Source of the DNA: Macrostomum lignano
Lineage: Eukaryota
NCBI GenBank assembly: GCA_002269645.1
Contig: NIVC01002259.1
Location: forward strand, 1-64,000
DNA: 64,000 nt
Direction of reading: 5' to 3'
The position numbers and the translations under genes are program-made. Under the pieces are notes generated by a model that ran no database searches, was not told the DNA's origin, and was given only the letters and a program-made list of their open reading frames with translations. Below are positions 1 through 26,585 of the stretch, piece by piece; position 1 is the stretch's first letter; every line of letters begins with the position of its first letter.

Positions 1-2179
1 AGAAGGAATTGGCGCTGTGCTTTCGCAGGTGCAGAAAGATGGGAGTGAAGAAGGTAATAGCTTACGGAAGCAGGACGTTGTCGCGAGAAGAACGGAATTA
101 CTGCACGACACGAGTCGAGTTGCTGGCCGTGGTGTTTTTCGTACAGAAGTTTCGTTATTACCTGATGGCGAGAGTTTCTAGTGCGCACCGATCACAGCAG
201 CTTGAAGTGGCTGCATTCGCTGCGGGACGTAGAAGGACAACTGGCCAGATGGCTGGAACTCTTGGCTCCGTACAGGTATCGCATCGAACATCGTCCGGGA
301 GTGAAACATCAACACGCGGACGCTCTCTCCAGGAAGCCACGTCGGCGCCATAGGAAGCGAGAGTTGTCCTGGATGTGCACAAGAGCAGATCGGCGTGAAC
401 GCGTTGGGATTGCAGAAGTGGACCTCGGAGGAGATCAGAGAGAGCCAGAAGATGGACAGCGACATTCGTCAGGCGATGGAGCTGCTGGCTCACAGCGACG
501 GAGAGATAACCGAAGAGCATTTGCGGCGCATATCACCGACGGCAAGGAGGATTGTCGAAAGACGTCGTGACCTTGAGGTGTCGGACAGTGAGGTGTTGCT
601 GTGTCATACGGCCAGTAGACGTCAGCCGCAAGTGGTGTTGCCACGGAATATGCTGAGAGCGGTGCTGGAAGAAGCTCATGGTGACGGAGTGGAGGGCACG
701 TTGGGATTTTCAAGACCAAGGAGAAGGTGCGGCAATCGTTTTGGTGGCCGGGACTTGGCCGCGAGGTCGAGAGCACGTAAAAGCCTGTTTGGACTGCACC
801 AAGGCCAAAGCTGGCAAGAAACCAATTGCACCGATGGAGCCGATTCCGAGTTCAAGCCCATTCGATATCGTGATGACGGACGTCATCGGGCCGCTGCCAC
901 GGAGCAAGAAAGGAAACTTCTACATCCTCACGGTGCAAGATGCGTTCTCAAAGTGGCCTGACGCTTATGCCATCCGGAACCAGAAGTCGGCAACGATCGC
1001 AAGGGTGCTATTCGAACGCTGGATTGCCAATCACGGGTGCCCCGGGTACTTCACTCAGACCAAGGAAGGAACTTTGAGTCGGGGATCGTCAGGAAGCTGT
1101 GCGAGCTGTTGGGTGTGAAGAAGACCAGGACGAGCGCCTACCACCGAGTGGCAACGGACAGGTGGAACGATTTAACGGGTTCCTGAAGAACAGTTTTGCG
1201 CACGTATCTGGTACAGAAGGGTCAGAACGCCTGGGAGGAGTACCTGCCAAGTGCCTTGATGGCTTATCGATCGACGGTCCAGGCGTCCACCGGTTACACG
1301 CCCTACTACATGCTGCATGGTCAGGAGATGCCGCTGGGATTCGAACCAGAGGACCTTAGGCGAAGACGGACAGCTATCCCTTGTTTGTGCAAGAGATCCA
1401 GCAGAACCTGCTTCATGCCCATGAACGCATTCGAGAAGGACGCGAGACGGTTCAGCGACGGCAGAAAATGAATTACGATCGGAAAGTAAAGGGCAAAGCG
1501 ATTCAGAAGGGCGACTCTGTCTTGCTGTACTATCCGTGCTTGGAGATGGGAGAGAAAAGCAAGTTCCATATCAACTGGCGCGGCCCAGTGAAGGTCCTGG
1601 AGAAGCTGTCAGATGCGTTGTACCGAGTGCAGGATCCGACACAGCCGCAGAAGACCAAGGTGGTGCACTTCAACAATCTCCGGCCGGTTCAGGGCCAGAC
1701 GGAGGCGGCAGACGGTCAAGAGACTAGAGAGGAAATTGGGAGGGCCAGTTCGGGAAAAACCAGGCCGCGACGTGATAATTCCACTGCTGGACGAAGCCGA
1801 AGGCAGAGAGTGCAACGGGGCGAGACCAGAGGTGGACCGCAGCGCGAGGGCCGCAGGACCAGGAATCCGAGCAGGAAGATGAAGAGTTTGAAGATCTTCA
1901 GCTGCGGTTTCAAGATCAAGAGATCACGCTCCACCGGACACCCGAAATCTGGCCGAAGACTGTGAGCCCGGACCTGAGCGTCGAGAAGCAGACGATGACG
2001 AAGAAGAGCACGACGATGAGTCGCGGTACGACGAGGAGCAGGACGAAGAGGATGAGGCAGAGCCGAACGACGCCAACGTACCCGAGCAGGAAGTGAGGAC
2101 GGCACAGGAGGAAGCAGGGCGACCAAGACGTCTGCGGCGACCGCCAGATCGGTTTGGGGTCCCGGTGTACTACTACTGA
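1..2179 (+). pseudogene. pol: Gypsy pol C-terminal part (RNase H, integrase zinc finger, DDE core, GPY/F, acidic tail), broken by about 9 frame switches in this sequence
   Basis: Motifs read across frames: IAYGSRTLSREERNYCTTRVELLAVV, RTDHSSLKWL, ARWLELL, HADALSR (RNase H); EEAH..GHVG..FWWPGL..HVKACLDC (HHCC); TDVIGP, HSDQGRNFES, NGQVERFN (D,D,E); WRGP (GPY/F). It ends ...RRLRRPPDRFGVPVYYY* at TGA 2177-2179. Confidence 0.93.
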
Positions 2180-2278
2180 AGAAGGGTCCGGTGTACGGCG
2201 CTTGGATAGCCAAAGGGGAAGGGAGGTACATGTCGTGCGTGTCTCATTGCTCATCGGAGTTAGGCCGGACTGTTACAG

Positions 2279-3239
2279 ATGGCGGACCTCTACGAGTGTC
2301 TTGGAGTGCAGCTGTGGGCGTCTGCGGCACAGATTCGGAAAGCGTTCTACGGTCGAGCACGCGAACTGCACCCTGACAAGAGCGCAACAGAGGAGACGCG
2401 AAAGAGATTCCAGGAGTGCGAAGAGGCGTACCGAATACTGTCGTGTCCGTTCCTTAGAAAGCTGTACGATATCTTTGGAAATGCTGTTCGTGACCGGGAT
2501 GAGATGCTTCGGCTCGCAGAAGGGATGTTAGAGGATGAAGACATGCCCGACGATCTCGAGAGAAGAGATAGAAAGACTACAAGAGAGCGACCGATTAGCT
2601 GAGGAGGCGTACGAGAGAGAACAGGCGAGGAGGGATGAGGAGCACGTCAAGATGGAGGCAAGTGAGGAGGCCTCAGACGATGAGCAGGACGAAGAGATGA
2701 ACGAGGCGAGTGAGACACTGCCGGAGGAGTACGAGGTCGAGAAGGTCTTAGGAGTACGAGTCACGGAGCGAGGAGCGGAGTATCTGCTGCAGTGGGCCGG
2801 TGTAGAGGAGCTTGAGACGTCATGGGAAGCGGAGGAAGATTGTGCCGGATGTAGAAACCTGATTGAAGAATATCTGCAGAGAGCGTACCGGCTTCAGACA
2901 AGACCGTGCCGACCAGTGACCGTCGCGGAACTGGAGAACGTAGGACCCAGTCGGAAGAAACTGCACCAGGCAATGCGGAAGGGCGACCCGTGGGGCATCT
3001 TTGAGGTGCTGCTAGCCCTGAAGGGGAAGTGCGCCACTGCCTTGGTGGATTTCAAGGAATTCGGTCCGGAGTTGATGCTGCAAATCCTGGGCTACTTGGA
3101 GCGAGACGGTCGCAAGTATCCGGGCACGGAGTTCGTCGGTGGAGTCGCCAAGCGTGTCAGCTGTCTACATGTCGGTGATGGTGGTGTTCCCGCTGTTCGA
3201 CCTGCGACGCCAGGGTTTGGTCCTGGGTGCCCTCCGTAG
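2279..3239 (+). CDS. Retrotransposon accessory ORF (~320 aa when joined): DnaJ J-domain, acidic linker, HP1-type chromodomain, C-terminal domain. One frameshift near 2560-2563.
   Basis: ORF 2279-2602: DLYECLGV..A.AAQIRKAFYGRARELHPDK...RFQECEEAYRILS....RKLYD, with HPD at 2369-2377. ORF 2535-3239: EEYEVEKVLGVRVTERGAEYLLQWAGVEELETSWEAEEDCAGCRNLIEEYLQR (2724-2882). The frames join as LE(R)EEIERLQ if a GA dinucleotide is restored in GAGAGAAGAG or one base is removed. Confidence 0.85.
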
Positions 3240-3825
3240 GCTGTGGGATTCGTGCTCTGACTGAGGCTATGTCTTCCTAGGGACTTTGGGGCTAGGGACT
3301 TTGCAGTGCAGACCAGGGACAGCGGAGCGGAGGTGGACCGGCCTTAACGGGTGCTGACGGAGCGACGCGGCTGTGCAGCAACCGCAGGACTCGACGACCA
3401 GCGCAGAGCGACCAGAGCAACCGGCGACAGTAGCGACAGGGAGACGAGGCACCAGAGCGACGGCCGTACTCGGCGGGATGCAGGGAAGCAGTGCTAGTAT
3501 TACTTGTGAGGGTAAATGTTTGACGGTTTCATTTTTTTGTTTTTTGTGAACATTTAGCGTTTTTTTCGAACTTCAGCGTTTTTGTTAAAGTGAGTTTTTC
3601 CCAAAATTTGCGTATTGCTTCCCAATGATGCGTACTCACTATCCTATGTTTGAAGGTTTCTTCGTCATTTTTAAACGGTATAATCACTGCGGTTTTGTTT
3701 TTTGTTCGAACTAGTTGCCATGCGAGTCCAAAATATTTTTCAAATGCGGTTTGTTCCTCTGTTCAATTTTTTTGTTATAGTAGCATCATTTCAATATTCG
3801 ACTTTTCGAACTCGAACTTTTGTCT

Positions 3826-3837
3826 AGGGGACGGGAG
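3826..3837 (+). other. Polypurine tract (PPT) of the retrotransposon
   Basis: AGGGGACGGGAG lies directly before the TG that opens the LTR and follows a T-rich stretch. Confidence 0.85.
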
Positions 3838-4671
3838 TGTCATGAATGTGTTATTATGACTGTGTGTACTTTGCTACTTTGCTACGCCGGGCCAGTCGGC
3901 CGTCCTCTCCCCCCTCCTTAGATATTTTCTGACTCACCCACCTGCACTTCTGCGCGTGCGTACCCCTCCCCTCCCTGCCTAGACCTTTTCTGTTGAGTCA
4001 AACCCCCCCCATGCTCTGCGTGCGACCCCCCCCTGTGCGACCCCGCCCCATTATTTTGTTAGCTTTGCTGCCCCGCCCCTGTTTGTGATTGGCTGCCAGT
4101 CCCAGTCTGCCGTGCTGCGCCCCGGCGATTGGCTGGTACAGCTCATGCGTTGCCTTGGCTGATGTCTAAGCCCCCTTTTCTGCCTTTATCCCGCGCCCTC
4201 GACCCCCAGTTTGCTGCCTATTTATTCGGCCCCCCTTGAGACCCCATTCTCGTCGTCTTCGTGGCTCCTCGGCGATTGTGCCAGCGTTGGTTGCTGAATT
4301 GCTATTCCTCGCAGAATTGCTAGACAAATATATAAGTAAAGAATATCGAGATCACCACTGCTCTGACGGCGCTGTTTCTTGTACGACTGAAATCGCGGCT
4401 GGTAAGCCTTCCAATTTGTACGTCATTTGGGTCTGCATCTGTACTAGGCACCTTAGAGGGATTAAGTGCGTCGTACGCCGGTCCCACCCCAAGCAGCTCT
4501 GCGTCGTACGCGAGTCTGTAGGCTGTCGTGCGTCGTACGCTCGAGCAGCCTAGTCCCGACGGACACCGCGTCGTACGCGTGTCAGTGGAGGACCGCAGCC
4601 AGGGTCAGTACACGAACCCGGGTCTGGGAAAGGGGCACGAAAGGACCGAGCCCTTGAGCCCCATCATCACA
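3838..4671 (+). repeat. 3' LTR, 834 bp
   Basis: Starts TGTCATGA right after the PPT and ends TCATCACA (7/8 inverted match). Internal TATATAAG and AGTAAA at about 4329-4340. The 5' LTR is not in the window, so LTR identity and the TSD cannot be checked. Confidence 0.8.
4329..4340 (+). promoter_or_regulatory. LTR TATA-like box and overlapping variant polyadenylation signal (AGTAAA)
   Basis: TATATAAGTAAA in the middle of the LTR, where U3/R signals are expected. Confidence 0.55.
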
Positions 4672-4797: not shown

Positions 4798-5367
4798 ATG
4801 GCGTCGGGACTGTCGATCAAAAAAAGGAAGAAATCCCAATTAAACTCGATCTTTGAAAGCTGACTCCACTACTGTCTCAATTGTACTGTGCCGACTGGGC
4901 CATGGTAGCGAAAGGTGACGCCCTCTGGGCTCTATTGGTCGTGCAACTTCATGTTTACACTTAAAGACAATGCTAATATTCAAACGCGCCGCCTCTGCCG
5001 CCTCCGTCGCCGCCACCGAGTCGCCGCGAAGAAACAGGGAAAAAAGAAACTAAAAAAAAGAGACTTTGAGTGAAAACGATCTATACTGAACCAATTTGAC
5101 ACCTTCCAAGTCTTCAGTTGCGCAAAGGTTTTTGTCTTGTCGAAACGCACTCGTTAACACCTCACTGCTGACCAGTTCTGTGTGCAATGTGTATGCAAAT
5201 TGATCATTAGAAGTGGATTGAGTATCAGAAGTAGCGAGAGCATGCAAGGTGATGATTGCAAGCACGACATGTCGGAGCCATGATTTTTTATTGAAGCAGT
5301 CGCGAGCGCTATAGGAGAGGGGAAGAGTGGGGTGCCAGCAGAAGATGTCAGACAAGGTACCGTAAAG

Positions 5368-5847
5368 GAGGCACCAGCAAGGATGTCAGAGGGGGCACCA
5401 GCTAGCATGTCAGAGGAGACACCAGCAAGGATGTCAGAGGAGGCACCAGCAAGGATGTCAGAGGAGGCACCAGCTAGGATCTCAGAGGAGGCGCTAGCTA
5501 GGATGTCAGAGGAGGCGCTAGCTAGGATCTCAGAGGGAGCGCTAGCTAGAATGTCAGAGGGAGCGCTAGCTAGGATGTCAGAGGAGGCACCAGCTAGCAT
5601 GTCAGAGGGAGCGCTAGCTAGGATGTCAGAGGAGGCACCAGCTAGGATGTCAGAGGGAGCGCTAGCTAGGATGTCAGAGGAGGCACCAGCTAGCATGTCA
5701 GAGGGAGCGCTAGCTAGGATGTCAGAGGGAGCGCTAGCTAGGATGTCAGAGGGAGCGCTAGCTAGGATGTCAGAGGGAGCGCTAGCTAGCATGTCAGAGG
5801 AGGCGCTAGCTAGGATGTCAGAGGAGGCGCCAGCTAGCATGTCAGAG
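5368..5847 (+). repeat. 24-bp minisatellite (GCACCAGCTAGCATGTCAGAGGAG variants), about 20 copies
   Basis: Direct tandem periodicity; translates as 8-aa repeats. Confidence 0.95.
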
Positions 5848-6956
5848 AAATCTCCATTAGAGACGGCCACTGCGTCAAAGCATCGAGTCCGATTGCTAAC
5901 TGTTTTGCCTGCTATTTTCAAGCAGAAATTCAAAGCAACAACAGTCAAAAGAGAGGCAGCCGCCCCGCATCAATAAAACATTGATTAGCTTAGCTTAGCA
6001 TCTGAGAAGACTCAACAAACAGAATAATTCTTGTCCCTACTAGTTTTTGCGCGGCTCTTTTTTGAGGAGAAGCGGGCCGCGGAGACAGCGCGCAGCAGTT
6101 CCCGTCGGCGTCGCAGTGGGGGAAAGCGGGCGGGCGGTGGGAGCGGCTGCCACATGCGCCCCCCCCCGCTCCCCCAATGAGACTCGCCCCGCGCAGCAAT
6201 GCAGGCAGGCAAAGCAGGAAAAAAGTGAAGACTGAAGGAGAGATTTTGAAAGAAATTTTCCAGACTTCTCCGGAGAGAATTATTTCTTGAGCAGTTTTCT
6301 CTCTCCTAATATTAGTCATTTCCCGCCAATTCTCATTTTCGTGGCTTTCGCGATTGCTTAGAAGAGCTGCCTGCAGCACTCAGTCTTCCCTTCTCAAGCT
6401 GGGGAAAGAAATAAAAACTGTTGAGTTAATTTCTTTCAGCAACACACATCCCAGATCCCCACCTGCAATTTCCTGCGCCCCGTGGCAAAGTGGCAACAGA
6501 GTAATGCAGGCTGCTGCAGCGCTCTCTCAGCTCAGGCTATCAAAATTCTCGCAATCCCGAAAACCGGGAAAAGCAATGAAAAACACTAGCGGAGTGCAGC
6601 GATGGTGTTTGGGGAGATTTTTCCCCCAATTGGCAATTCTCCCAGGGCTCTCCTATAGCCCTGCCAGAGCACTCAGCTGTCGGGCAGCCGCAGTTCTGCC
6701 CACAGATCAAAGAGGAGTTAAAAAACCCGGCAGAATGCATCCAATTAACCTGCTCCCTCTTATACCACAAAATGCCCATTCCGCATATTTGACAAGCGGG
6801 GCAATGCAGTCTACACTGTTTGAGTCTAATTGCATGGAAAGACTGTGGAGGGTGCCAAAAACGAATGAAATATTTCCCAATTAAGCTGTGAAGCAGTTAT
6901 TTTGCAGAGGAGTAACTGCTAAATAACCTGCATAAACTCATCAAGGCTCAGCTTCT

Positions 6957-7621
6957 ACTAACAGATTCACAGGCTCTACCAACAGCTTCACAGGCTTTAC
7001 CAACAGATTTACAGGCTCTACCAACAGATTTACAGGCTCTACCAACAGATTTACAGGCTTTACCAACAGCTTCACAGGCTCTACCAACAGCTTCACAGGC
7101 TTTACCAACAGCTTCACAGGCTCTACCAACAGCTTCACAGGCTTTACCAACAGATTTACAGGCTTTACCAACAGCTTCACAGGCTTTACCAACAGATTTA
7201 CAGGCTCTACCAACAGATTTACAGGCTCTACCAACAGATTTACAGGCTTTACCAACAGCTTCACAGGCTCTACCAACAGCTTCACAGGCTCTACCAACAG
7301 CTTCACAGGCTTTACCAACAGATTTACAGGCTTTACCAACAGATTTACAGGCTTTACCAACAGGTTTACAGGCTCTACCAACAGCTTCACAGGCTTTACC
7401 AACAGATTTACAGGCTCTACCAACAGCTTCACAGGCTTTACCAACAGATTTACAGGCTCTACCAACAGATTTACAGGCTTTACCAACAGCTTCACAGGCT
7501 CTACCAACAGCTTCACAGGCTTTACCAACAGATTTACAGGCTTTACCAACAGATTCACAGGCTTTACCAACAGATTTACAGGCTTTACCAACAGCTTCAC
7601 AGGCTCTACCAACAGCTTCAC
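6957..7621 (+). repeat. 21-bp minisatellite (CAGGCTCTACCAACAGATTTA/GCTTCA), about 31 copies
   Basis: Direct tandem periodicity. Confidence 0.95.
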
Positions 7622-9809
7622 AACCTCCACCACAGAAGCTTAAACAAAAAGCCAAAAAGGCCTCAGAAGACAAAAAGCAAGCAGGTACCAGCAAGACAGA
7701 GTCAGTCAGTCCCGTATATATCAGGTAAACTAGCTTGCAGTGAAACAAAGCAAATTACTGTGCAATAGAGGGGGAGGGGAGGCATTGACTGGCAAACGCA
7801 TGATTGAACTTGAAACCGCGACAGACAAAAATTGCGTCACACACACAGCGCAACACAATTGGGCCCAATCTATTTGAAGTTTTCAACCCCCAAAGACCAG
7901 AATAAAGGTTGAATAGGAGCTGAAACTGCCCAGAGGGCGAATTGCTAAAAAGCTATAAGCCAGCAGATACAGTTGTATTGAAACACACAATCCAGTACAG
8001 TTGCCAGCCCAGCAAGTGTTCGCGCCGCTCTCTCATCTCTCGGGTGTCAGCCTGCGAACCTCTTAGAGCGTGCAAAACCTGCCACCCTCCCCTCAGGCAC
8101 AGGGGGATGCCCACCTGCACACACACACACACACACACCTGTAAGGCAGGCCATCAGGGCTCCATGGCTGCGGACTGACAGGACAGAGAAAAGCATAATT
8201 TTAGCTTTATGAGGCGCCGCCTGTCAAAAAGTCATTTATTATTTTTTTATTCTGAGCAGCCAGTTAGCCAGCAGGTGGAGAGTCTCTTAATTGGATAGAA
8301 ATATTGATAATTAATTAACCTCCCAAGTTGTCATTGCTTATTTTATAATTCACCATTATAAAGCATATCAGATCAGCAAACAATGGAGACAATTATATTT
8401 CTTATTTATTTAACCCGATCATTTTTGTTTTAATAGGCCACGCTAATTGTTGTTTTTTAAATATTATCTAAACATATCGGTAGGGTCGATTCATTCTAAA
8501 GTATTTTTGGGTAGAAAAAATCCAAAAAACCTGCAGTATAAAAAATCAATTTTCGATTTGATACAGACATTAAGAAAGCAAACTGAACTGTCAGTAATAT
8601 ACAATACTTATAATAATAAGTATTTAGCCAATAGGTAATAACACATATTTACATGACTATAGCACGGATTATACAGTAACAAATATAACATATCGCGCTA
8701 ACAGGTTTACCGTGTGTGTGCAAGTTTTGATTCGGGGGAAAAAGCAGACTGATTGCTAGGCTGGGCTGACACAGGCAATAAAGCAATAATAAGGTCGGCA
8801 AAACTGCGGCCCTCGGGTCCTTTGAAACATCACAAATAGCGATCCGGCCAGTTCAAGGCTTGTGTCTCTTCTCGGCTCTCTTCTCACCTTTTATCAACTA
8901 TCTATCCTTGCAGCTCCTCTCTCCTCTCATCTTCTCTTACCCTTTTCACCCCTCTCATCTCACTGCTTATCTATTCTCTAATCTGATCTCCCCTCTCTCA
9001 TCTCTGAACTCATCTATTCTCTAATCTCATCTCTCCCTGTCTCATCTCCCAACTTATATATTCTCTAATATCCACATTCCTCCTCTCTCACAGCTCATCT
9101 ATTCTCTAAGCTCTTCTCTCCTCTCTCATCCCACAGCTCATCTATTCTCTAATCTCATCTCTTCCTCTCTCATTTCCTCCTCTCATCTGACCAGCAGCCA
9201 TGCTCTAGATTGTTCATCCCGAGGTTACCAAAGCATGCCGACCCCAACTAGAATGCACAAAGATGCGAAAAAACTCGGAAGATCGGAAACTGTTGATTAT
9301 AACTATTATAGCCAGTGGTATCCGCTGACAAGATTTCATATAATCGCGGGAACAAACTGCATTTTGCACTACTTAAACTAAGAACAGCCCAAGTAGTATA
9401 ATAAGAAAATTAGCACAAGCATATTAGCAAAAGTTAAAATACGAGAACTAACTCGGCGGCTAGGCTAAAATAAACCAGCATGTAAAAATTGAAATCACAA
9501 TAAGCAGCAGGAAGGACCCTTAAAATTCTAATTTTTAGGCATTGTACAACATTTTGCCAGCTAGATTACAGAAAACTTGATTTTCATTTCTATGTATAAC
9601 AGAATTTACTGACAAAAATCGAAGCGGTCCAATCAATAAAATCCGACAGACTAATAAAGTGAATGAACTGCGATGCGGCTTATGAGAAGAATGAGCGGAT
9701 GAAAAGTACAAATGACTAAATCCTGGCATGCACTGCAGGATCATAGATTGTGTGAGGCCGGGTGCGTTTAGCTGGCATTGCGCGAACACAGGGTAGCTAT
9801 TGGCGAGGG

Positions 9810-23364: not shown

Positions 23365-26300
23365 AGCGCAATGTCAAACATAGAAGAGCCACCATGTCGA
23401 ACATTATAGAGCCAACATTTCGAATATAAAAGAGTTACCATGTCAAACATAAAATAAGCACTATGTCAAACATATACGTGACTCCATGTCAACGATTAAA
23501 AAGCCACCATTTCAAACATAGAAGAGCCACTATGTCAAACCTAAACAAGCCACCACGTCTAACATTTAAGAGCCACCATGTCAAACATTTAAGAGCCACC
23601 ATGTCAAACATTAAAGAGCCCCCATGTCAAACATTTAAGAGCCACCATGTCAAACATTTAAGAGCCACCATGTCAAACATATATGTGACTTTATGTCAAA
23701 CTTTAAAGAGCCACCATTTCGAACATCAAATAGCCACTTTGTCGAAAATTAAAGAGCCACCGTGTCAAACATAGAAGAGCCACCATGTTAAACATAGAAG
23801 AGCCACCATGTCAGACATTAAAAAGCCACCGTATCAAACATAAAAGAGTTACCATGTAGAACAAAAAACAGCCACCATGTCGAACATAAAAGAGCCACCA
23901 TGTAGAATATTAAAGAGCCACCATGAAGAACATTAAAGAGCCACCATGAAGAACATTAAAGAGCCACCATGTCAAACATAAAAGAGCCACCATGTCAGAC
24001 ATTAAAAAGCCACCGTATCAAACATAAAAGAGTTACCATGTAGAACATTAAAGAGCCACCATTTCAAACAGTAAAGAGCCACCATGTCAAACATAAAAGA
24101 GCCACCATGTCAAACATTAAAAAGCCACCATGTCAAACATAAAAGAGCCACCATGTAGAATATTAAAGAGCCACCATGAAGAACATTAAAGAGCCACCAT
24201 GTCAAACATTTAAGAGCCACCATGTCAAACATTTAAGAGCCACCATCTCAAACATATATGTGACTTTATGTCAAACTTTAAAGAGCCACAATTTCGAACA
24301 TTAAATAGCCACTTTGTCAAACACTAGAGAGCCGCCGTGTCAAACATAAAAGAGCCACCAGGTTAAACATTAAAGAGCCACCATGTCAGACATTAAAAAG
24401 CCACCGTATCAAACATAAAAGAGTTACCGTGTAGAACATTAAAGAGCCACTATTTCACACAGTAAAGAGCCACCATGTCAAACATAAAAGAGCCACCATG
24501 TCAAACATTAAAAAGCTACCATGTCGAACATAAAAGAGCCACCATGTCAAACATTAAAAAGCTACCATGTCGAACATTAAAGAGCTACCATGTCAAACAT
24601 TAAAGAGCCACCATGTCAAACATTAAAGAGCCACCATGGCGAACATATAAGAGCCACCATGGCGAACATTAAAGAGCCACCATGTCAAACATAAAAGAGC
24701 CACCATGTCAAACATTAAAAGTCACCATGCTAAACATTAAAGAGCCACCATATCAAGCATAAAAGAGGCACCATGTCAAACCTAAAAGAGCCATCATGTC
24801 AAACATAAAAGAGCCAACATGTCAAACATTAAAAAGCTACCATGTCGAACATTAAAGAGCTACCATGTCAAACATTAAAGAGCTATCATGTCGAACACAA
24901 AATAGCCACCATGTCAAACATTGAAGAGACACTATGTCAAACGTATACGTGACTCCATGTCAAACATAAAAGTGCCACCATGTCAAACTTTAAAGAGCCA
25001 CCATGGCGAACATTAAAAAGCCACCATGTCAAACATAAAAGTGCCACTATGTCAAACATTAAAGAGCCACCATGTCGAACATTAAAGAGCCACCACGTCA
25101 AACACTAAAGAGCCACCATGGCGAACATTAAAGAGCCACCATGGCGAACATTAAAGAGCCACCATGTCAAACATAAAAGAGCCACCATGTCAAACATTAA
25201 AAGTCACCATGCTAAACATTAAAGAGCCACCATATCAAGCATAAAAGAGCCACCATGTCAAACCTAAAAGAGCCATCATGTCAAACATAAAAGAGCCAAC
25301 ATGTCAAACATAAAACAGCCAACATGTCAAACATAAAGAGCCACCATGTCAAACATTTAAGAGCCACCATGTCAAACATATATGTGACTTTGTGTCAAAC
25401 ATTAAAGAGCCACCTTTTCGAACATTAAAGAGCCACCATTTCGAACATTAAAGAGCCACCATGTCAAACATGAAAGAGCTATAACATGAATAATATTAAA
25501 GAGCCACCATGTCGAACATTTAAGAGCCACCATGTTAAACCTAAAAGAGCCACCATGTTAAACCTAAAAGAGCCACCATGTTAAACCTAAAAGAGCCACC
25601 ATGTTAAACCTAAAAGAGCCATCATGTTAAACCTAACAGAGCCATCATGTCAAACCTAAAAGAGCCACCATGTCGAACATTTAAGAGCCACAATGTAAAA
25701 TATTAAAGAGCCACCATTTCGAACATATAAGTGACTTTATGTCAAACATTAAAGAGCCACCATGTCAAACATTAAAGAGCCACCATGTTAAACATAAAAG
25801 AGCCACCATGTAGAATATTAAAGAGCCACTATGTTGAACATTAAACAGCCATCATGTCAAACCTAAAAGATCCACCATTTCGAACACTTAAGAGCCACAA
25901 TGTAGAATATTAAAGAGCTACCATGTCAAACATTTAAGAGCCACCATGTAAAACATTAAAGAGCCACCATTTGAAACATTAAAGAGTCACCATGTCAAAC
26001 ATTAAGGAGCCACCATGTCAAACATTTAAGAGCCACCATGTCAAACCTAAAAGAGCCACCATGTCAAACATAAAAGAGCCACCATGTCAAACATAAAAGA
26101 GCCACCATGTCAAACATAAAAGAGCCACCATGAAAAACATTAAAGAGCCACTTTCTCGAACATTAAAGAGCCACCATGTCAAACACATCAAGAGCCACCA
26201 TGTCAATTATATATGTGTCTTTATGTCAAACATTAAAGAGCCACCATTTCGAACATTAAGGAGCCACCATGTCAAACATTTAAAAGCCTCCTTTTGAAAC

Positions 26301-26585
26301 ATTAAATAGCCACTTTGTCGAACATTAAAGAGCCACTGTGTCAAACATAAAAGAGCCACTGTTTCAAACATAAAAGAGCCACCAGGTTAAACATTAAAGA
26401 GCCACCATGTCAAACATAAAAGAGCCACCATGTTAAACATAAAAGAGCCACCATGTCTGACATTTAAAAGCCATCGTTTCAAACATAAAACAGTTGCCAT
26501 GTAGAACATAAAACAGCCACCATGTCAAACATAAAATTTACACAATTTCAAACATAAAAGTAAGCGAATTTTAAAGGAGCCACTA
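23365..26585 (+). repeat. ~23-bp satellite (AAACATTAAAGAGCCACCATGTC), roughly 135 diverged copies, inside the TIR element
   Basis: Direct tandem periodicity. Confidence 0.95.

What the first reader, a model, noticed from the sequence alone, without database searches (positions are those of the whole stretch)
2279..3239. Gypsy retrotransposon carries an extra gene fusing an Hsp70-recruiting J-domain to an HP1-like chromodomain
Seen: between the pol stop (2179) and the PPT/LTR (3826) is a separate sense-strand ORF, in the slot where env-like genes sit. It has a complete J-domain with intact HPD (2369-2377), a ~60-aa Glu/Asp-rich linker, and a chromodomain that aligns almost residue for residue with HP1 (EEYEVEKVL..R...EYLLQWAG...SWEAEEDC..C.NLIEEYLQ). 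One frameshift near 2561 lies in a GA run. Known: chromoviruses fuse a chromodomain to integrase for targeting; J-domains stimulate Hsp70 ATPase via HPD and are used by polyomavirus T antigens; host DNAJC9 and DNAJC2 act on chromatin. I know of no LTR retrotransposon with a stand-alone J-domain-chromodomain gene. Inference: the protein could bring Hsp70 to methylated heterochromatin to strip HP1 or remodel nucleosomes (anti-silencing), or chaperone and tether the integration complex. That would be an undescribed TE-encoded chromatin-chaperone system.
Basis: partly seen in the sequence, partly recalled or inferred. Interest (0 to 1): 0.9.

Follow-up and report, generated by a model that had tools for sequence, protein, structure and literature searches.

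The report
Flatworm retrotransposons carry a chaperone-recruiting gene
A group of jumping genes in a free-living flatworm carries an extra, well-conserved gene that joins an Hsp70-recruiting part to a chromatin-reading part, probably to act on the host's silencing machinery; what it does has not been tested.

Summary
The genome is Macrostomum lignano. The window holds the 3' half of a young Ty3/gypsy element. Its third gene is broken here, probably by assembly error: 20 of 25 near-full matches have J-domain and chromodomain in one frame, and 17 of 25 encode a whole 326-328 aa protein.

J-domain, acidic linker and CTD form the core, shared by at least seven related element lineages. The chromodomain occurs in one lineage only; two others add a TatD-like domain. 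All parts are under purifying selection (dN/dS about 0.1-0.3), and the gene appears to have been exchanged between subfamilies.

The chromodomain is 50% identical to mouse HP1-beta but lacks one of three cage aromatics. Chromodomain-less relatives often carry a SUMO-binding-like motif. Best reading: an element-encoded Hsp70 adaptor aimed at silenced chromatin (about 45%); particle or integration chaperone is the main rival. No transposon J-protein turned up in five literature searches. Function is untested.

The parts
1..2179 (+). 3' part of pol (RNase H end, integrase, acidic tail); 11 frame breaks in this copy
   Evidence: Pfam RT_RNaseH, rve, Integrase_p58_C; break count
2180..2278 (+). Spacer with three stops in the pol frame (counting the pol stop) and an acceptor-like AG directly before the ATG
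   Evidence: splicing is inferred and was not observed
2279..3264 (+). ORF3: 328 aa in intact natural copies; frame breaks here near 2558, 3121 and 3158
2285..2470 (+). J-domain, HPD at 2369-2377, with the clade's LSCPF-type motif
   Evidence: Pfam DnaJ 2.4e-16; PDB J-domain hits; alignment
2495..2723 (+). Helices after the J-domain, then Glu/Asp-rich linker
   Evidence: model, residues 73-131 helical; 33% acidic over residues 68-220
2724..2885 (+). HP1/Swi6-like chromodomain, cage Y151/W172/V175
   Evidence: Pfam Chromo 4.4e-13; best PDB hits Swi6 and HP1-beta; cage residues
2916..3264 (+). Five-helix C-terminal domain with a basic G-x-G-x-R-R-W loop, shared across the clade, no known family (approximate start)
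   Evidence: alignments; pLDDT 85.6; no significant match
3826..3837 (+). Polypurine tract
3838..4671 (+). 3' LTR (TG...CA); holds a donor-like CTG|GTAAG at 4401/4402, whose 5' LTR twin lies upstream of the window

Best explanation
Shown by sequence (about 90% sure): ORF3 is a selected accessory gene of a clade of Macrostomum Ty3/gypsy elements. Its core is J-domain + acidic linker + helical CTD, with lineage-specific add-ons (a chromodomain in the window's lineage, a TatD-like domain in two others). Inferred (about 45%): it is a class-C-type Hsp70 adaptor working in the nucleus against silencing. Step 1, inferred: it is made from a spliced subgenomic RNA (LTR donor to the AG before the ATG). 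Step 2, inferred: the chromodomain, or in sister lineages a SUMO-binding-like motif, docks it on silenced chromatin, and the basic CTD loop may add specificity for the element's own RNA or DNA. Step 3, from known J-protein chemistry: HPD triggers host Hsp70 to pull apart the bound complex. Step 4, inferred: the element's copies are de-repressed.
For: In frame in 20 of 25 matches. Purifying selection: chromodomain dN/dS 0.21, CTD 0.20, J-domain dS saturated with dN 0.35 between subfamilies A and A2; 0.10-0.29 in three other subfamily pairs; 23 synonymous vs 9 non-synonymous changes among 14 intact copies. HPD is kept in A, A2, B, C, D, E and F. Two different lineage-specific features point to silenced chromatin: an HP1-like chromodomain, and a hydrophobic-core-plus-Ser/acid motif in 7 of 11 chromodomain-less linkers against about 1.2 expected from shuffles, like the PML motif described in PMC12295420 (passages). 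SUMO is needed for piRNA-guided silencing in flies (10.1101/533091, abstract). Host J-proteins act on chromatin: DNAJC9 (PMC8221569, abstract) and SILENZIO with Hsp70 (PMC8616336, section 2.11). ORF3 is far more diverged than RT within subfamily pairs (dS above 1 vs 0.18), as expected of an exchanged accessory module.
Against: No function was tested. The third cage aromatic is Val here and Leu in the 76%-identical P0002, and Phe only in subfamily A2, so methyl-lysine binding may be weak or absent. The SUMO-like pattern was defined after seeing the sequences, related rows are not independent, 4 of 11 miss, and neither family-A linker has it. Family H (L126) has lost HPD yet keeps a 571-aa open frame, so Hsp70 recruitment is not universal. 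The closest host precedent, SILENZIO, silences rather than activates. No splice joint was seen in four runs' contigs. Whether M. lignano silences these elements through SUMO and H3K9 methylation was not checked.
Confidence: 0.45

Rival explanations
1. Replication or integration chaperone: ORF3 brings Hsp70 to the element's own Gag, Pol or pre-integration complex to assemble or uncoat it, and the chromodomain steers integration in trans.
For: Viral J-proteins are common (one search lists giant-virus, baculovirus and phage J-proteins). Chromodomains on integrases are known (PMC13524379, passages) and occur on other multi-copy integrases in this genome. In a first sample, chromodomain-family flanks were richer in tandem repeats (0.41 vs 0.10, 13 vs 13 copies, P 0.009).
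Against: The flank signal weakened with more copies: 7 of 16 vs 7 of 31 3' flanks over 30% repeat, P 0.07 (rank) and 0.18 (Fisher), with 9 of 60 loci skipped and 4 removed as duplicates. One chromodomain lineage against four others confounds ORF3 with the integrase. Five RT relatives at 50-54% identity show no ORF3 at all.
Confidence: 0.27
2. Chaperone decoy: ORF3 diverts Hsp70/Hsp90 from loading small-RNA effectors, or disturbs heat-shock control, lowering defence genome-wide.
For: Argonaute and Piwi loading needs Hsp70/Hsp90 (recalled, no call). Some M. lignano LTR families exploit the heat-shock response (PMC12801592, parts 1-2 read). The TatD-like add-on could act on nucleic acids.
Against: It does not explain the chromodomain. 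No canonical heat-shock element was found in the LTRs of five ORF3 families.
Confidence: 0.12
3. Self-limiting repressor: like SILENZIO, it reinforces silencing of the element in some cells to cap copy number.
For: SILENZIO is a J-protein that silences through a methyl reader and binds Hsp70; HP1-like readers usually repress.
Against: The family is young and multi-copy (LTR pairs 98.5-99.9% identical); exchange of the module among lineages fits a benefit to the element.
Confidence: 0.1
4. Neutral captured host fragment, nested insertion or assembly artefact.
For: The window copy itself is broken.
Against: Same position inside matched LTRs in many copies; dN/dS far below 1; short-read contigs of two studies cover ORF3 without gaps against an intact copy; no introns; TE chromodomains form their own clade, 98/98.
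Confidence: 0.03

Closest known systems
Non-env ORF3s of LTR retrotransposons (rotifer DEDDy exonuclease and GDSL esterase; orchid AlkB-type demethylase)
   Same: Extra captured gene in a Ty3/gypsy element, family-specific and modular (PMC5408684, passages; PMC9289625, abstract).
   Different: Cargo here is an Hsp70 co-chaperone with an unknown helical domain; 'DnaJ' does not occur in the main text of PMC5408684.
Chromoviruses and other chromodomain-bearing integrases
   Same: A retrotransposon-borne chromodomain.
   Different: Here it sits in a separate gene behind three stops, between a J-domain and the CTD; pol has no chromodomain.
Arabidopsis MBD5/MBD6-SILENZIO and human DNAJC9
   Same: J-domain linked to a chromatin reader or binder, with Hsp70.
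   Different: Host-encoded; SILENZIO represses and needs a separate reader; no sequence or fold link of the CTD to DNAJC9's histone-binding part was found.
VANC21 of VANDAL21 transposons
   Same: Transposon-encoded factor acting on silencing of its own family (PMC8616336, passage).
   Different: DNA transposon, DNA demethylation, no J-domain reported in that passage; the same role is only inferred here.
Viral J-proteins (polyomavirus T antigen, recalled; baculovirus and giant-virus J-proteins)
   Same: Mobile element supplies its own J-domain to use host Hsp70.
   Different: Likeness is limited to the J-domain; none matched the CTD.

Membership tests
Ty3/gypsy LTR retrotransposon | Paired LTRs with TG...CA ends, short target duplication, PBS and PPT | tested here: met
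   13 of 16 family loci show an LTR pair of 600 bp or more; 4-bp duplications readable at L034, L039, L050; PBS and PPT
Ty3/gypsy LTR retrotransposon | gag with zinc knuckle; pol order protease-RT-RNase H-integrase | tested here: met
   Pfam on L040 gag and pol
Gmr1/Osvaldo cluster of M. lignano | RT groups with reference members | not tested
   No reference RT was in hand; the tree holds only this genome's loci
Chromovirus | Chromodomain fused to the integrase C-terminus | tested here: not met
   No Chromo hit in the 1408-aa pol; three in-frame stops before ORF3
Chromovirus | RT in the chromovirus clade | not tested
   No reference RT
env-carrying gypsy (errantivirus) | ORF3 is a membrane fusion glycoprotein | tested here: not met
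   Pfam gives DnaJ and Chromo, no envelope family; helical model; no dedicated transmembrane predictor was run
J-domain co-chaperone | Full J-domain with HPD | tested here: met
J-domain co-chaperone | Stimulates Hsp70 ATPase | not testable with these tools
   needs biochemistry
HP1 family | Chromodomain with three-aromatic cage | tested here: not met
   Y151/W172/V175 in the window's family; F/W/F in subfamily A2
HP1 family | C-terminal chromoshadow domain | tested here: not met
   CTD is a five-helix model with no Pfam hit
DNAJC9-like histone co-chaperone | Histone H3-H4 binding domain | tested here: inconclusive
   Not listed in fold searches; the TE J-domain does not group with the host row I read as DNAJC9 (L091) in a poorly resolved tree

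The most novel reading that the evidence does not exclude
A whole clade of animal LTR retrotransposons encodes its own Hsp70 adaptor that dismantles silencing complexes on the element's copies, reaching them by interchangeable address modules (an H3K9-methyl-type chromodomain or a SUMO-binding motif) that the elements trade by recombination. It would be a chaperone-powered counter-silencing system with a domain of no known family at its core.
Probability: 0.35. Interest if true: 0.9.

Novelty: new variant of a known kind. Interest (0 to 1): 0.72.

Why it matters
Few counter-defence genes of animal retrotransposons are known. This one is intact, selected, spread over many lineages, and sits in an animal with transgenesis (PMC12801592) and, from my own knowledge, RNAi. 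That makes it directly testable whether a transposon can turn Hsp70 against heterochromatin. Natural variants (with or without chromodomain, without HPD, with TatD-like domain) supply built-in comparisons. Copies are annotated as host 'J domain-containing proteins', so J-protein counts for this species are probably inflated.

Tried and rejected
Expression: no RNA holder listed; the runs used are only guessed to be RNA, so transcription is not shown.

Splicing: no LTR-to-ORF3 joint in 4 of 4 runs, and contigs of three runs pass through the acceptor unbroken; contigs drop rare forms.

CTD identity: nothing from Pfam, PDB sequences (designed helical proteins only), Foldseek PDB and viral (0 matches at E 0.001), VIA-align (best Z 7.7, rmsd 2.5, 80 aligned, four-helix caps of B12-binding proteins, within the background range) or the ESM Atlas. 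This shows no new fold.

A CTD-integrase complex prediction gave no verdict, so that question is open.

Wider range: a profile search was swamped by ordinary DnaJ; a CTD search of longer proteins gave 4 hits, three named M. lignano and P0002; two metagenome scans found nothing. P0002, P0032 and P0034 are relatives without context.

P0100 (J + chromo, 263 aa) lacks the CTD, and its J-domain does not group with the TE rows; set aside.

Read-through from pol: rejected, three stops. Heat-shock elements: 0 of 5 LTRs. Tandem-repeat insertion bias: inconclusive. Donors of the J-domain and chromodomain: unresolved. The lower frame-break rate in ORF3 than in pol (2 vs 37 in 14 copies) is not used, since those copies were picked for good ORF3 matches.

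Earlier findings of this scan: three look-ups, nothing.

Literature: searches found no transposon-encoded J-protein or TatD by listing and abstract starts. PMC12801592 has no 'DnaJ', 'chromo' or 'ORF' in its main text; the 'DnaJ domain' rows of its supplement 2 are transcript annotations. The earlier M. lignano LTR classification it cites, Repbase entries and subscription journals were not seen, so a prior note cannot be excluded.

Full report
Observation. The window starts inside the pol gene of an LTR retrotransposon. Pol stops at 2179, an ATG follows at 2279, and the PPT and 3' LTR lie at 3826-3837 and 3838-4671. Pfam finds a full J-domain (E 2.4e-16) and a full chromodomain (E 4.4e-13) in different frames. 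Against an intact natural copy, the window's gene has three frame breaks, near 2558, 3121 and 3158, and ends at 3264. The intact protein is in NCBI as a hypothetical Macrostomum lignano protein, which names the genome.

The breaks are probably assembly errors. A DNA search gave 35 matches, 25 near full length. Of these 25, 20 have J and chromodomain in one frame and 17 encode 326-328 aa; some are redundant haplotype copies. The window copy also has 11 breaks in 2.2 kb of pol. L031 shares the window's first 20 bases of 3' flank (173 of 241 positions ungapped, in a tandem repeat) and has ORF3 whole. Short-read contigs from two studies span ORF3 with no gap against an intact copy.

The element. 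Of 16 family loci fetched, 13 show LTR pairs of 600 bp or more at 98.5-99.9% identity, around gag, pol and ORF3. Ends are TG...CA with 4-bp target duplications where readable. Pol has the Ty3/gypsy order and no chromodomain. Three in-frame stops separate pol from ORF3, so this is not a chromovirus-type fusion.

The gene is clade-wide and modular. A protein search of the genome and follow-up loci show the same third gene in lineages I label A (window), B, C, D, E, F and H, with decayed subfamilies A2, B2, C2 and D2. All share a J-domain, an acidic linker (less acidic in H) and a C-terminal domain of about 110 aa (H by profile, E 8e-5). The chromodomain is in A and A2 only, and in P0002, an unnamed protein 76% identical to P0001. 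F and H add a TatD-like domain; H has lost HPD. Of 12 further RT neighbours, one had J + CTD, two had fragments that I read by eye, two were interrupted or broken, two (L124, L125) had no hit, and the five most distant had none. The RT tree leaves the deep order open, so monophyly is not shown. P0032 and P0034 are unnamed J + CTD proteins at about 29% identity with no context.

Selection. Pairwise Nei-Gojobori counts on natural copies: A vs A2, chromodomain 0.21 (P 3e-5), CTD 0.20, J-domain dS saturated with dN 0.35; B vs B2, 0.10 and 0.21; C vs C2, 0.10 and 0.18; D vs D2, 0.16 to 0.29; one F pair was too close to tell. High dS makes these ratios rough. Among 14 ungapped intact A copies there are 23 synonymous and 9 non-synonymous changes (ratio 0.12). 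In A/A2 and B/B2, RT dS is about 0.18 while most of ORF3 has dS above 1. I read this as exchange of the gene by recombination.

The parts. The chromodomain's best solved relatives are Swi6 and HP1-beta (26 of 52 identical to the latter by my count), more than to this genome's HP1-like domains (17-20 identities). Its third cage position is Val, Leu in P0002 and Phe in A2. TE chromodomains form one clade (98/98), apart from the genome's integrase chromodomains; the donor is unresolved. The CTD folds as five helices with mean pLDDT 85.6 and has a basic loop. Chromodomain-less linkers often carry a hydrophobic core followed by Ser and acidic residues: 7 of 11 against about 1.2 by shuffling, with a pattern chosen after the fact. 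It resembles the PML SUMO-binding motif as described in PMC12295420 (passages). Family A lacks it.

Expression. An AG ends within about one base of the start codon in 7 of 9 family rows and within 16 bases in all 9. All five families' LTRs examined hold a GTAAG donor-like site at position 480-585. Rotifer ORF3s are said to be expressed from spliced messages (PMC5408684, passage). The joint was not seen here, so this step is inference.

Mechanism. J-proteins pair a client-binding part with HPD to set Hsp70 on that client (established knowledge). Here two different add-ons point to silenced chromatin, SUMO is part of piRNA-guided silencing in flies, and host J-proteins work on chromatin. I put counter-silencing at 0.45, replication or integration chaperone at 0.27, chaperone decoy at 0.12, self-repression at 0.10 and passenger at 0.03. 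The test for insertion bias gave P 0.009 in a first sample of 13 vs 13 copies and P 0.07-0.18 in a larger 3'-flank sample of 16 vs 31: inconclusive.

Known systems and novelty. Extra non-env genes in gypsy elements, retrotransposon chromodomains, viral J-proteins and transposon anti-silencing factors are each known. A retrotransposon J-protein did not appear, nor in the M. lignano LTR paper (PMC12801592: parts 1-2 of 6 read, term search of the main text, supplements searched by term). PMC13524379 was seen as passages only and PMC9289625 as abstract only. Repbase and subscription papers were not searched. Verdict: a real, selected, apparently undescribed accessory gene; a new variant of a known kind; interest 0.72.

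Noticed in passing
L089:975-2330 (-), L126:3310-5022 (+), L123:3086-3629 (oriented): Sister lineages add a degenerate TatD-like domain after J + CTD (Pfam 1.1e-7 above cut-off; 9.4e-5 below; L123 by eye only). L126's J-domain lacks HPD; its RT family has about 15 matches.
   Followed up: partly
L041 vs L034: Subfamily A2 is about 94% identical in gag-pol and 91% at the ORF3 3' end, but only about 55% in protein over J, chromodomain and the first half of the CTD: a recombination mosaic. L041 and L042 also have a roughly 640-bp insertion inside ORF3 without GT at its start.
   Followed up: partly
L043:3967-7481; L121; L147-L150: Gene sets that look to me like Polinton/adintovirus capsid, ATPase and minor capsid genes (Pfam did not confirm those of L043). 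L147 and L149 have integrase-chromodomain fusions; the L147 type has about 25 matches.
   Followed up: partly
L087, L040, L007/L027: Tandem or inverted rearrangements that duplicate ORF3 or part of the element.
   Followed up: no
L099:1861-5160 (-): A deletion copy fuses RT-RNase H in frame to the J-domain and CTD (1099 aa); probably the source of NCBI's fused model P0273.
   Followed up: no
L124, L125 after the pol stop: Close RT relatives of the TatD lineages with no J or CTD hit in the ORF3 position; the content there is unexplained.
   Followed up: no
window 4672-64000: The element sits in a short tandem repeat; the rest of the window is about 34% tandem repeats, including a 23-bp array at 23371-26536. 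Repeat-derived long frames at 5284-5976 and 6916-7768 are probably not genes.
   Followed up: partly
L002, L031, L035, L036, L040, L081, L086: ORF3 lies in the same frame as pol in families A, B and D despite intervening stops; may be chance.
   Followed up: no
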